Program-made: the position numbers and the translations under genes
From: a virus
Direction: 5' to 3' (one strand)
Length of the DNA: 64,000 bases
Virus record (IMG/VR): IMGVR_UViG_3300045988_119379
Location: 87,113-151,112 of that record
Shown here: positions 61,490 through 63,663 of the stretch, one piece after another
Position numbering within the stretch: the stretch's first letter is position 1
How the letters are laid out: every line of letters begins with the position of its first letter
The notes under the pieces: generated by a model
The model's input: the letters and a program-made list of their open reading frames with translations, nothing else
Told to the model about the DNA's origin: nothing
Databases searched by the model: none

Positions 61490-61518
61490 TTTCTTTCCTC
61501 CTTTGTTTTTAATGTTGT

Positions 61519-61585
61519 GTGAGATCGCCGGAATCGAACCGACCTACCGCACCATGAATCCCATAAAGCAAATGCTCCGATCTTC
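61519..61585 (-). tRNA. tRNA-like element (T-arm GTCGG-TTCGATT-CCGGC, 3' acceptor GATCTCA-C pairing with upstream AGATC); preceded by a 9-bp hairpin (61571-61600); cloverleaf not resolved
   Basis: GGTTCGATTCC motif plus acceptor complementarity; shares 3' end ATCTCACA with the 60663 element. Confidence 0.3.
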
Positions 61586-61831
61586 GCAGACGGGAGCATT
61601 CTGTCTAAAGCATAAGAAAATTAATGAAGAAAATCTTCCTCACTTACGCCATAGCATCTAAAATAGCTATCAACACTATTTCTATGACAAGCATAATAGA
61701 GAATGTCTTAAATATCTTTTTCATATCTCCTCCTTTTTTATCTGTTCTTTTCACGTTCCACAATAAACTGTTCCGGCTCTGCTCCGACCTACGTTCCACC
61801 TACAACCGCAGGCCTTAGCCCAAGGCGCCGC

Positions 61832-62092
61832 CTACTCCCCCTCTATGGCAGCCTGTTCGTACCTACAAAGCCAATCTCCATCTATACAACTATTACTACG
61901 CGATAACAAACATTTATCCTTATAATAATCATAAAAAATACACCTCTCACAACTGTAATCCCTAATTTCTATACAGCTAACTACCTTAGCATATACTATA
62001 CCATCACTGCCTCCTATTCCTTTCACCCCAAAAATAGAACCTTCTTCCTCCTTACTCAAATCTAAGTCAGGCGCAAAGTCATATACGTTCAT
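61832..62092 (-). CDS. Cys-rich small protein (86 aa)
   Basis: ORF. Confidence 0.45.
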   Translation of the reverse strand: MNVYDFAPDLDLSKEEEGSIFGVKGIGGSDGIVYAKVVSCIEIRDYSCERCIFYDYYKDKCLLSRSNSCIDGDWLCRYEQAAIEGE

Positions 62093-62161
62093 GTTGTTTA
62101 TGTTTTAATTGTTATACATTCCGATTGAAAAAAATACTCACATAATGCAGTCCTTAACTCT

Positions 62162-62453
62162 TACCTACAGAATACTGTTTTAAAAACGCTGTAAGTCTTA
62201 ATTTTGTTGGAAAATCCTACAGAATGCTGTTTTAAAGCACTGCAATCCTTAATCTTGTTGGAAGAACCTACAGAATGCTGTTTTAAAACGCTGATCTGTT
62301 GAATTTTGTTGAAAGAGAGTTGAATTTTGTTGAAAGAGAGTTGAATTTTGTTGAAAGAGAGTTGAATTTTGTTGGAAGAGCCTACAGAATGCTGTTTTAA
62401 AACGCTGATCTGTTGAATTTTGTTGGAAGAGAGTTGAATTTTGTTGGAAGAGA
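62162..62453. repeat. iteron array: six 21-bp units TTGAATTTTGTTG(A/G)AAGAGAG interleaved with four ~52-bp units CCTACAGAAT(G/A)CTGTTTTAAAACGCTG...AATYTTGTTGGAA; followed by C-rich tract 62454-62505
   Basis: direct tandem repeats read from sequence; no spacers, so not CRISPR. Confidence 0.8.
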
Positions 62454-62978
62454 GTGCCCTCCCTCTCCCCCTCTCCAACCCCGGCTAATCCTCCGGCTTT
62501 CCGCATAGAACCTGCACTCTACCGCCTCACTACCGGCATACGGAGAACGCTACAAGCTTATACTATGGCATGAAGTATGGGGTGTTTAGAGATAATATCA
62601 TTCCATAGAGAGAATGAAGACCTTCAGCCCACGCCCTACCGTCTGCTCCTCCTATCAAAATAGATATTTAAACCTATAATCAAAGCCAATAAAGAAAAGA
62701 AAAAGGTCATTACAACATTATACTGATCCGGTCCGTACTCCAACATAGAACGAATACCAACCGACAGAAAATACAAGTCAGCTACTAATAAAAACCACCA
62801 CATAAAATAAAAAAAAAATACAATAAGTATGTCCGAAAATACGGGTATTATAAAACCTAACTAATTGATAATCAAGCATACCTCATTTTTGAGAAAAATA
62901 CAATAAGCTTAATTTTCAATCCATAGAGACGAAAAAGGCGGCATCCGGCACCCTATTTTGGGTCAGAAAACCGCCTAA

Positions 62979-63071
62979 AGTTTCGTTTTAGACCAATTTT
63001 AACGACATGATATAGACAAAATACCGGCATTATATCCAAACTATCCTATTTTAGTTTCGTTTTAGACCAAT
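62979..63071. repeat. two copies of 19-bp direct repeat AGTTTCGTTTTAGACCAAT (62979-62997 and 63053-63071) in AT-rich non-coding zone
   Basis: exact 19-nt identity 55 nt apart. Confidence 0.6.
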
Positions 63072-63176
63072 ATAGCTCAAATCCGACGTTCACTCTCAGA
63101 ATATCTTACCCTTAAATAGAAAGAGTAGGATACAAAAATAGGGCTGCTCCGATATTCGAAACAACTCTATTCCTGT

Positions 63177-63383
63177 TTAAATACTGTTTATGTTTTCTTT
63201 CACGTATGTTCGTGATGTATGGACTTTACGTTTGCATTTGTCCTTTCCTGTATCGGAATGATACGCTTCTTTGAGATCACGATACAACATAAATTCACGA
63301 TACGCTCTTTTCCTCTTTTCTTTAGCTTCTTTCCTGGACAGACCGCGAACATCTACCATGTAAGATTTAAATTTCCTTTCCAT
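63177..63383 (-). CDS. small basic protein (68 aa)
   Basis: ORF. Confidence 0.4.
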   Translation of the reverse strand: MERKFKSYMVDVRGLSRKEAKEKRKRAYREFMLYRDLKEAYHSDTGKDKCKRKVHTSRTYVKENINSI

Positions 63384-63600: not shown

Positions 63601-63663
63601 AGGTTGCTCTGGAATCGAACCAGACACGCATTCCTATTCTATACGAATTTTATGCTACAACCA
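63601..63663 (-). tRNA. tRNA-like element (perfect T-arm TCTGG-TTCGATT-CCAGA, 3' acceptor GCAACCT-C pairing with upstream GGTTGT); only about 63 nt so probably non-canonical or mis-bounded
   Basis: GGTTCGATTCC motif; candidate anticodon stem-loop with AGA; D-arm not found. Confidence 0.25.

What the first reader, a model, noticed from the sequence alone, without database searches (positions are those of the whole stretch)
62162..62505. Iteron array plus C-rich tract: candidate replication origin or protein-binding array
About 290 bp of nested direct repeats: six 21-bp units (TTGAATTTTGTTGAAAGAGAG) and four about 52-bp units containing the near-palindrome ACAGAATGCTGT and the same TTGTTGGAA core. 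A 50-bp polypyrimidine/C-rich tract follows immediately (CCCTCCCTCTCCCCCTCTCCAACCCC). This architecture (iterons plus an adjacent compositional-asymmetry element and an AT-rich zone downstream) is typical of phage and plasmid origins bound by an initiator. The two supplied ORFs here are translation artefacts of the repeats.
Basis: partly seen in the sequence, partly recalled or inferred. Interest (0 to 1): 0.6.

Follow-up and report, generated by a model that had tools for sequence, protein, structure and literature searches.

The report
Hypervariable non-coding repeat array, crAss-like phage
A real 293-bp block of tandem DNA repeats lies in the main gene-free region of a gut crAss-like phage; its two short core motifs are conserved, but its copy number changes faster than point mutations, and nothing yet shows that it is the replication origin.

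Summary
The repeats are real: window 62163-62455 reads ABABABBBBABB, where A is a 30-nt head and B a 21-nt tail, followed by a C-rich tract. The window is an epsilon crAss-like phage, 94% identical to crAssE-Sib (OR575929).

In about 95 related loci the array sits at the same place. A copies range 2-10 and B copies 1-10. Genomes with identical 1.2-kb flanks differ by 21, 51 or 72 bp. 27 of 95 loci have a contig end in the array.

Two cores (CTGTTTTAAA and TTGAATTTTGTTGG) and their 23-24-nt spacing are conserved, and every complete genome keeps at least two units. The ACAG..CTGT palindrome, a G-quadruplex motif and any ORF across the array are not conserved.

The motifs occur nowhere else in the genome. 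No initiator, partition ATPase or DnaA-box cluster is nearby. The GC-skew minimum lies 18.8 kb away but only follows gene orientation, so it neither supports nor excludes an origin.

The array is 639 bp from the published PhageTerm start of crAssE-Sib, just upstream of the first gene of a long leftward block.

Verdict: a fast-evolving minisatellite built on a probable multi-copy protein-binding motif. Origin is the leading single function but is unproven (about 0.3).

The parts
62163..62455 (.). Tandem array ABABABBBBABB. Long units (A head + B tail) are at about 62163-62214, 62215-62265, 62266-62316 and 62380-62430. B-only 21-nt units are at about 62317-62337, 62338-62358, 62359-62379 and 62432-62452.
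   Evidence: The motifs are confined to this locus.
62175..62184 (+). First copy of the conserved A core CTGTTTTAAA. Other copies start at 62227, 62278 and 62392.
   Evidence: The core is nearly invariant among 77 distinct unit variants.
62200..62213 (+). First copy of the conserved B core (T)TGAATTTTGTTGG or TTAATTTTGTTGG. Other cores start near 62251, 62302, 62323, 62344, 62365, 62416 and 62437. It lies 23-24 nt after each A core.
   Evidence: A-to-B spacing is 23-24 nt in 173 of 180 cases.
62093..62162 (-). Leader and upstream region of the 86-aa gene. It holds a degenerate A-like unit (62138-62162) and an A-run whose length varies (7-11) among relatives.
62457..62505 (+). C-rich tract. 62457-62476 is a pure 20-nt pyrimidine run, which is a polypurine, G-rich run on the gene-sense minus strand.
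   Evidence: Run length is 20-21 nt in 54 of 65 loci. A canonical G4 motif is present in only 29 of 65.
61832..62092 (-). 86-aa Cys-rich, beta-rich protein of unknown function. It is the first gene downstream of the array in the leftward block.
62636..62803 (-). 55-aa hydrophobic ORF, a likely small membrane protein, upstream of the array in the leftward sense.
   Evidence: A comparable small membrane ORF lies next to the B-like motifs in the divergent relative L226.
62814..62907 (.). AT-rich zone with two exact copies of AAAAATACAATAAG (62814-62827 and 62894-62907). It also holds a leftward sigma-70-like promoter match, TTGATT-17-TATAAT, at 62875-62847.
   Evidence: The motif is also present twice in L226.
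62935..62954 (-). Terminator-like hairpin followed by a T-run on the minus strand.
62979..63071 (.). Two exact copies of AGTTTCGTTTTAGACCAAT (62979-62997 and 63053-63071). The second ends 23 bp before the position that matches the crAssE-Sib genome start.
63094..63095 (.). Position that matches the start of the crAssE-Sib record (record base 1 = window 63095). The authors set that start with PhageTerm.
   Evidence: paper PMC11054128
63143..63165 (-). Terminator-like hairpin just after the stop of the upstream 68-aa gene. It overlaps a TTG-N21-TATTTTTG match on the same strand.

Best explanation
The array is a fast-evolving, non-coding minisatellite built from a conserved two-part DNA motif. 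The motif is A core CTGTTTTAAA, then 23-24 nt, then B core TTGAATTTTGTTGG. The array lies in the single large control region of an epsilon crAss-like phage.

Shown: the array gains and loses whole units (21, 51, 72 bp) faster than the flanks collect point changes. The cores and their spacing are kept. At least two units are always present. The motifs occur nowhere else in the genome.

Inferred: the units are multiple binding sites for one sequence-specific DNA-binding protein, as iterons are. Unit gain and loss probably comes from slippage or unequal recombination. Only a small minimum number of sites is needed, so extra copies drift freely.

Most likely job (inferred, weakly): this is the origin region of a phage that has no DNA polymerase of its own and must recruit the host replisome together with its own DnaB-like helicase and primase. 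In that model, leftward transcription from the AT-rich zone would run through the 20-nt polypurine tract. This could help open or prime the DNA next to the bound array.

I put about 0.7 on 'functional multi-site binding array' and about 0.3 on 'origin' specifically.
For: The array and its chance expectation are established. About 95 relatives carry the array at the same locus, with A copies 2-10 and B copies 1-10.

Genomes with zero differences in 1.2 kb of flanks differ by 21, 51 or 72 bp in the array. The core logo and spacing are conserved: A-to-B is 23-24 nt in 173 of 180 cases, B-to-A is 27-29 nt in 125 of 136, and the modal B-to-B spacing is 21 nt.

B-only runs with different junctions and periods (17, 20, 21, 22, 23 nt) appear in different lineages, and all keep the B core. 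No complete locus has fewer than two A units.

A relative whose neighbouring protein is only 54% identical keeps the same order: membrane-protein gene, purine-rich tract, three B-like motifs, next gene.

The motifs are unique in the 151-kb genome. It is the only strong tandem array in the 64-kb window, and no iteron-like repeats lie near the helicase and primase genes.

Epsilon phages lack a DNA polymerase (PMC7886860), while DnaB-like helicase and primase genes are present. Coding-strand GC skew steps from 0.267 to 0.181 across this locus, and an origin at 0-0.5 kb of the crAssE-Sib record, just right of the array across the record junction, is the second-best fit.

Against: There is no DnaA-box cluster. 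The AT-rich zone is not exceptional. The replication term in the skew model is negligible: residual sum of squares is 0.861 without it and 0.828 with it. The best fit is at the 18-kb divergent junction.

Copy number is unconstrained, and B spacing ranges from 17 to 23 nt, so strict helical phasing is not required. The array region is the least conserved part of the locus, though this is partly an alignment effect. The divergent relative has only 2-3 degenerate copies.
Confidence: 0.3

Rival explanations
1. The array is a near-neutral minisatellite (VNTR). It would be a slippage-prone stretch in a tolerant intergenic region with no sequence-specific function, kept uniform by concerted evolution.
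For: Unit gain and loss outpaces point substitution. Copy number ranges widely. The array is the least conserved part of the locus. 27 of 95 loci have a contig end in it, as do 3 of 3 long ENA or Logan contigs looked up. There is no large array in the divergent relative L226. The palindrome, the G4 motif and the ORFs are not conserved.
Against: Cores and inter-core spacing are far better conserved than linker positions across 77 and 144 distinct variants. The two oldest units have diverged from each other (65-79% identity) yet still keep the cores. No genome has collapsed to one or zero units. B-like motifs and the purine tract persist at 54% protein identity.
Confidence: 0.25
2. The array is a transcriptional control element for the leftward gene block. 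It could be operator or upstream-activator sites for a phage regulator. Alternatively, the G-free B repeats in the leftward transcript could act as an RNA-level signal such as a Rho-loading site. Copy-number changes would then tune early expression, as in a contingency locus.
For: The array starts 70 nt upstream of the first gene of a long block of small leftward genes, and degenerate units reach to within about 45 nt of its start codon. Two terminator-like hairpins and a promoter-like site lie upstream in the same sense. Orientation is fixed in all relatives. The minus-strand B run contains no G.
Against: No Bacteroidetes-type or sigma-70-type promoter is recognisable on the sense strand within or just below the array. 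Known phage operators are few and usually dyad-symmetric. No regulator is identified. The motif is not found upstream of any other gene.
Confidence: 0.2
3. Each unit is a host-type promoter that fires rightward on the + strand. The B core would act as the Bacteroidetes -7 box (TAnnTTTG) and the CTG or TTG of the A core, or of the previous B unit, as the -33 element. The products would be non-coding or antisense RNA running towards the genome end.
For: TAATTTTG (6 of 6 specified positions) or GAATTTTG (5 of 6) is present in every unit. A 20-21-nt spacer to an upstream TTG or CTG is preserved in both AB and BB junctions.
Against: The consensus is AT-rich and non-specific, with 31 comparable hits in 2.6 kb. 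Strict matches are rare and not clearly used by this phage. Conservation extends well beyond the promoter boxes. There is no + strand gene, terminator or structured RNA downstream. The B-like motifs of L226 (AATTTCTG) do not fit the -7 box.
Confidence: 0.1
4. The array is an element linked to packaging or to the genome end. It could be a terminase-recognition (pac) accessory site, or a signal acting on the first DNA to enter the cell, like the short repeat arrays that flank the T7 terminal repeat.
For: The array ends 639 bp from the position that matches the PhageTerm-derived start of crAssE-Sib. It shares one non-coding region with two other pairs of locus-specific repeats.
Against: The 19-nt repeats at 62979-63071 lie far closer to the predicted end and are better pac candidates. 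The terminase genes are 20 kb away. No other public contig ends at the PhageTerm position, whereas many end in the array, which points to a repeat-induced assembly break. The packaging class was not reported in the paper.
Confidence: 0.1

Closest known systems
Iteron-type phage and plasmid origins (lambda ori with four O-protein sites; SPP1 oriL and oriR 'AB boxes' bound by G38P; R6K and pPS10 plasmids). Basis: established knowledge.
   Same: Several direct repeats of about 20 bp, here with a modal 21-bp spacing, lie in a non-coding stretch with an A/T-rich segment nearby. The unit is bipartite, as in the SPP1 AB boxes. The phage depends on the host polymerase but brings its own helicase and primase.
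   Different: No cognate initiator gene lies in or beside the array. Copy number varies from 2 to 10 between near-identical genomes. Spacing is not fixed (17-23 nt). No replication data exist.
Bacterial VNTR or minisatellite loci and contingency loci (MLVA markers; repeat tracts upstream of phase-variable genes). Basis: established knowledge.
   Same: Head-to-tail units change in number faster than point mutations, lie in non-coding DNA just upstream of a gene, and break short-read assemblies.
   Different: Here the units carry two strongly conserved cores with fixed spacing, and there is a floor of two units. That argues for a sequence-specific role beyond length variation. No phenotype is known.
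Tandem-repeat centromere or maintenance arrays (F plasmid sopC, 12 x 43 bp; Epstein-Barr virus oriP family of repeats). Basis: established knowledge.
   Same: Units of about 40-50 bp are arrayed many times, with tolerated variation in number. A plasmid-like carrier state has been proposed for crAss-like phages (PMC10983915; discussion in PMC11054128).
   Different: No ParA, ParB or ParR-like gene was found in the proteins I scanned. There is no evidence of episomal maintenance for epsilon phages.
Short repeat arrays flanking the T7 terminal repeat, and the tandem early promoters A1-A3 near the T7 left end. Basis: established knowledge.
   Same: A repeat array lies a few hundred bp from a predicted genome end, at the head of a block of small genes read inward from that end.
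   Different: Terminal repeats are not shown here. No sense-strand promoters are recognisable in the array. The packaging mode is unknown.

Membership tests
Iteron-type replication origin | Three or more direct repeats of about 17-22 bp with a conserved core | tested here: met
   There are eight B cores and four A cores in the window. The cores are nearly invariant across relatives.
Iteron-type replication origin | Fixed, helically phased spacing of the repeats | tested here: inconclusive
   The modal B-to-B spacing is 21 nt (44 cases), but spacings of 17, 19, 20, 22 and 23 nt also occur in relatives. A-to-B spacing is fixed at 23-24 nt.
Iteron-type replication origin | Cognate initiator (Rep, O or replisome-organiser) gene containing or adjoining the repeats | tested here: not met
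Iteron-type replication origin | Adjacent exceptional A/T-rich unwinding element or DnaA boxes | tested here: not met
   The AT zone is only in the top 1% or so of unstable stretches and is not the extreme. There is no DnaA-box cluster.
Iteron-type replication origin | Strand-composition switch (GC-skew extremum) at the site | tested here: inconclusive
   The skew minimum is at 18 kb of the crAssE-Sib record, 18.8 kb from the array. Skew is explained by gene orientation, and the replication term is negligible, with 18 kb and 0-0.5 kb nearly tied.
Iteron-type replication origin | Replication starts there (marker frequency, 2-D gels, autonomous replication) | not testable with these tools
VNTR / minisatellite | Head-to-tail units with copy-number polymorphism among near-identical genomes | tested here: met
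   Loci L034, L041, L043 and L052 have identical flanks and differ by 21, 51 or 72 bp. The range is A 2-10 and B 1-10.
VNTR / minisatellite | Non-coding (no conserved reading frame) | tested here: met
   A frame stays open across the array in only 3 of 65 loci. Periods that are not multiples of 3 occur in relatives.
Plasmid or phage partition centromere (sopC, parC type) | Adjacent ParA-type ATPase and centromere-binding adaptor genes | tested here: not met
   No ParA, ParB or ParR family hit was found in the neighbours or in the ATPases scanned.
CRISPR array | Identical repeats separated by unique spacers | tested here: not met
   Both parts of the unit recur, and there are no unique spacers.
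Structured non-coding RNA or tRNA | Match to a known RNA family, or unusually stable fold | tested here: not met
   There are no Rfam hits at gathering score, only chance-level hits at E about 5, and no tRNA. Fold z-scores of 62452-62660 are +0.47 and +0.29.
pac / terminase recognition site | Location at the packaging cleavage site and binding by the small terminase | tested here: inconclusive
   The array is 639 bp from the position matching the PhageTerm start. Other repeats lie closer. Binding cannot be tested here.

The most novel reading that the evidence does not exclude
The array could be a copy-number-variable maintenance element for a plasmid-like carrier state of a polymerase-less crAss-like phage. 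In this reading a phage or host protein coats the repeats to tether or segregate the episome, or to fire its origin, much like the Epstein-Barr virus family of repeats or F sopC. Strain-to-strain changes in unit number would tune persistence.
Probability: 0.05. Interest if true: 0.8.

Novelty: new member of a known kind. Interest (0 to 1): 0.4.

Why it matters
Epsilon crAss-like phages are common in the human gut, cannot yet be grown, and encode no DNA polymerase. How and where they start replication is unknown.

This array is the only strong candidate cis-element of its kind in the genome, so it gives a concrete site to test. It is not described in the published crAssE-Sib analysis, where a 'hypothetical protein' is annotated across it.

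Two practical points follow. The array breaks a large share of public assemblies of these phages. Its unit number is also a ready-made high-resolution marker for tracking strains between people.

If the array has no function, it is an ordinary minisatellite and matters only for those two practical reasons.

Tried and rejected
**Coding repeat protein.** Rejected. A frame is open across the array in only 3 of 65 loci, and relatives have periods of 17, 20, 22 and 23 nt.

**tRNA or known RNA family.** None found.

**Structured RNA next to the array.** Fold z-scores are about 0.3-0.5 on both strands.

**Conserved G-quadruplex on the minus strand.** A canonical motif is present in only 29 of 65 loci.

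**Conserved palindrome ACAG..CTGT.** Not conserved; variants read ACAT, ACAA, ATAT and ATAG.

**DnaA boxes.** No cluster.

**Dispersed promoter or operator motif.** The A and B cores, the AAAAATACAATAAG motif and the 19-nt repeat are all confined to this locus.

**Second iteron set near the helicase and primase genes.** None.

**Partition system.** No ParA-like ATPase.

**attP site.** The published search for an integrase failed (PMC11054128). The two T-arm-like motifs nearby are not tRNAs.

**GC skew as an origin locator.** Uninformative, because it follows gene orientation.

**Search of bacterial genomes for the array.** My pattern was too degenerate.

**IMG/VR search with the most divergent homologue.** Found nothing useful. 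The relative was reached through the look-up of encoding contigs instead.

**Other epsilon relatives in GenBank phages.** Only crAssE-Sib itself is present.

Full report
**1. What is there.** The sequence at 62163-62455 is a 293-bp tandem array. Tandem Repeats Finder reports a 51-nt period over 62163-62316. It also reports a 21-nt period over 62298-62380 (4.0 copies, 98% matches) and over 62412-62455 (2.1 copies, 100%). The repeat finder gives the same picture. Each long unit is a 30-nt head (A, CCTACAGAATGCTGTTTTAAAACGCTGATC) followed by a 21-nt tail (B, TGTTGAATTTTGTTGGAAGAG). B also occurs alone, so the array reads ABABABBBBABB. Both motifs are far above chance and occur only here in the window. 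A C-rich tract follows.

**2. Where it is.** The window is an epsilon crAss-like phage, 94% identical over this region to crAssE-Sib (OR575929.1, 151,256 bp). Genes from about 21 kb to the end of the window all lie on the minus strand. In crAssE-Sib this block continues across the record junction to a divergent switch at 17.4 kb.

The array lies in a 1.1-kb stretch without confident genes (62093-63176). Read in the leftward (gene) sense, the order is as follows:
- the stop of a 68-aa gene;
- a terminator-like hairpin (63165-63143);
- the position that matches base 1 of the crAssE-Sib record (window 63095);
- two exact 19-nt repeats (62979-63071);
- a second terminator-like hairpin (62954-62935);
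- an AT-rich zone with two exact 14-nt repeats and a sigma-70-like promoter match;
- a 55-aa hydrophobic ORF;
- the polypurine tract;
- the array;
- 70 nt further on, an 86-aa gene that opens a long run of small genes.

The crAssE-Sib authors set their record start with PhageTerm (p = 1.5e-22; PMC11054128). The array is therefore 639 bp from a predicted physical genome end. They annotated a 40-aa hypothetical protein across the repeats and do not discuss the array.

**3. Comparison with relatives.** A DNA pattern search and a search with the 86-aa protein brought in 97 IMG/VR loci, plus four contig sets from other collections. The array is at the same place in all of them, but its architecture differs widely, from AAB to ABABABABABABABABABB.
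- In 65 loci that span the whole region, A copies range 2-10 and B copies 1-10. The distance from the start codon to the C-tract ranges from 143 to 569 bp.
- Loci with no difference at all in 1.2 kb of flanks (L034, L041, L043, L052) differ by 21, 51 or 72 bp in the array. Unit gain and loss is therefore faster than point substitution.
- In 27 of 95 loci the array touches a contig end. All three long ENA or Logan contigs I looked up also end in it or just before it. No contig other than crAssE-Sib itself ends at the PhageTerm position. These are repeat-induced assembly breaks.
- The array region is the least conserved part of the locus (0.79-0.92 against 0.95-0.99), though part of that is alignment noise in repeats.

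**4. What is conserved.** Across 77 distinct A variants and 144 distinct B variants, two cores are nearly invariant: CTGTTTTAAA and (T)TGAATTTTGT(TGG). Linker positions vary.
- A-to-B spacing is 23-24 nt in 173 of 180 cases. B-to-A spacing is 27-29 nt in 125 of 136. B-to-B spacing peaks at 21 nt but also takes 17, 19, 20, 22 and 23 nt.
- B-only runs in different lineages have different junctions, so they arose independently, and all include the B core.
- No complete locus has fewer than two A units.
- In a relative whose neighbouring protein is only 54% identical (L226) there is no large array. The same order is kept, however: membrane-protein gene, purine-rich tract, three B-like motifs (TTATCCAATTTCTGC twice and CATTTCTGCGGTTGGAAG), then the next gene. 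The 14-nt motif and a version of the 19-nt motif are also there.
- The following are not conserved: the ACAGAATGCTGT near-palindrome, a canonical G-quadruplex motif (29 of 65 loci), and an open frame through the array (3 of 65 loci).

I read this as a short functional motif, needed in at least two copies, embedded in an expansion-prone array.

**5. Tests of the origin idea.**
- The cumulative GC-skew minimum of the complete crAssE-Sib genome is at 18 kb, the divergent gene junction, 18.8 kb from the array. The maximum is at 111 kb, the convergent junction.
- A regression of skew on gene orientation plus a bidirectional-replication term shows that orientation explains nearly everything. The residual sum of squares is 0.861 without the replication term and 0.828 with it. 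The best origin positions are 18 kb and then 0-0.5 kb, just right of the array across the record junction. Skew therefore neither supports nor excludes the array.
- Coding-strand skew does step from 0.267 to 0.181 across the locus. No matching difference appears within the plus-strand block, so a change of gene class explains the step equally well.
- There is no DnaA-box cluster. The AT-rich zone is only in the top 1% or so of unstable stretches.
- In favour of an origin: epsilon phages encode no DNA polymerase (PMC7886860), so they need a defined site to recruit the host replisome. This is the only iteron-like array in the genome.
- The arrangement of promoter-like site, 20-nt polypurine tract in the transcript, then array also resembles transcription-primed origins. 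That is an analogy from general knowledge, not a result.

**6. Other readings.**
- **Pure neutral minisatellite.** This fits the hypermutability but not the conserved cores, the fixed spacing or the two-unit floor.
- **Transcriptional control element.** This fits the position just upstream of the first gene of the block. I found no sense-strand promoter in or below the array, and the motif is not reused elsewhere.
- **Rightward host-type promoters.** On the + strand each unit resembles a Bacteroidetes promoter: TTG or CTG, 20-21 nt, then TAATTTTG or GAATTTTG. That consensus is non-specific here (31 comparable hits in 2.6 kb). Strict matches are rare in the window. Nothing lies downstream on that strand. 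The motifs in L226 do not fit.
- **Packaging role.** This is possible given the nearby predicted end, but the 19-nt repeats lie much closer to it.
- **Partition, attP, CRISPR and RNA-gene readings.** All fail their defining tests.

**7. Verdict.** This is very probably a multi-copy protein-binding array (about 0.7). Its copy number is free to drift, and nothing shows that it is the origin. I rank origin first among specific functions at about 0.3. A functionless minisatellite follows at 0.25, a transcriptional control element at 0.2, rightward promoters at 0.1 and packaging at 0.1. It is a new member of a known kind. It is of moderate interest as a testable origin candidate in an uncultured, polymerase-less phage group. 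It is of practical interest as a cause of assembly breaks and as a strain marker.

Noticed in passing
window 62979-62997 and 63053-63071: There are two exact copies of AGTTTCGTTTTAGACCAAT, found nowhere else in the window. The second ends 23 bp before the position that matches the PhageTerm-derived start of crAssE-Sib (window 63095). They are better candidates for a packaging recognition site than the array. A related motif occurs twice in the divergent relative L226.
   Followed up: partly
window 62814-62827 and 62894-62907: There are two exact copies of AAAAATACAATAAG, 80 bp apart, in the AT-rich zone. They flank a leftward TTGATT-17-TATAAT match (62875-62847). The motif is also present twice in L226 (AAATACAATAAG).
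   Followed up: partly
window 61490-61831; L001 7392-7796: The window lacks a 134-aa gene that crAssE-Sib and other relatives carry between the 115-aa and 86-aa genes. About 395 bp are absent, leaving 340 bp with no long ORF.
   Followed up: partly
window 61527-61545 and 63610-63625, minus strand: Motifs resembling a tRNA T-arm (GGTTCGATTCC) lie in non-coding stretches. ARAGORN and Rfam call no tRNA. The first sits next to a stable hairpin (AATGCTCC...GGAGCATT; fold z-score -1.96). They could be tRNA remnants or small RNAs.
   Followed up: partly
window 61573, 61780 and 63145: A 14-nt motif (TGCTCCGATCTTCG and variants) recurs three times. Each copy is in or next to a hairpin after a gene end on the minus strand, so it may be a shared terminator module.
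   Followed up: no
window 62095-62106 and 63185-63196: The same 12-mer (TGTTTATGTTTT, which reads AAAACATAAACA in the gene sense) lies within a few bases upstream of the start codons of the 86-aa and 68-aa genes. This suggests a shared translation-start leader.
   Followed up: no
window 62125-62135 and relatives: An A-run just upstream of the 86-aa gene varies from 7 to 11 bases among relatives. It is a second, homopolymer-type variable site next to the array.
   Followed up: no
window 61832-62092, minus strand (alignment A1): The 86-aa protein has a variable Cys-rich insertion (such as CHKDNCY) in some relatives. This is a small coding repeat polymorphism inside a probable metal-binding region.
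   Followed up: no
window about 20.9 kb; crAssE-Sib 110.8 kb and 17.4 kb: The sign of the GC skew follows gene orientation exactly. It is positive in the plus-strand structural block and negative in the minus-strand block. The convergent switch is near window 20.9 kb, and the divergent switch is outside the window.
   Followed up: yes
window 63133-63164, minus strand: The terminator-like hairpin after the 68-aa gene overlaps a full match to the Bacteroidetes promoter pattern TTG-N21-TATTTTTG. The same 30 nt could therefore end one transcript and start the next.
   Followed up: no
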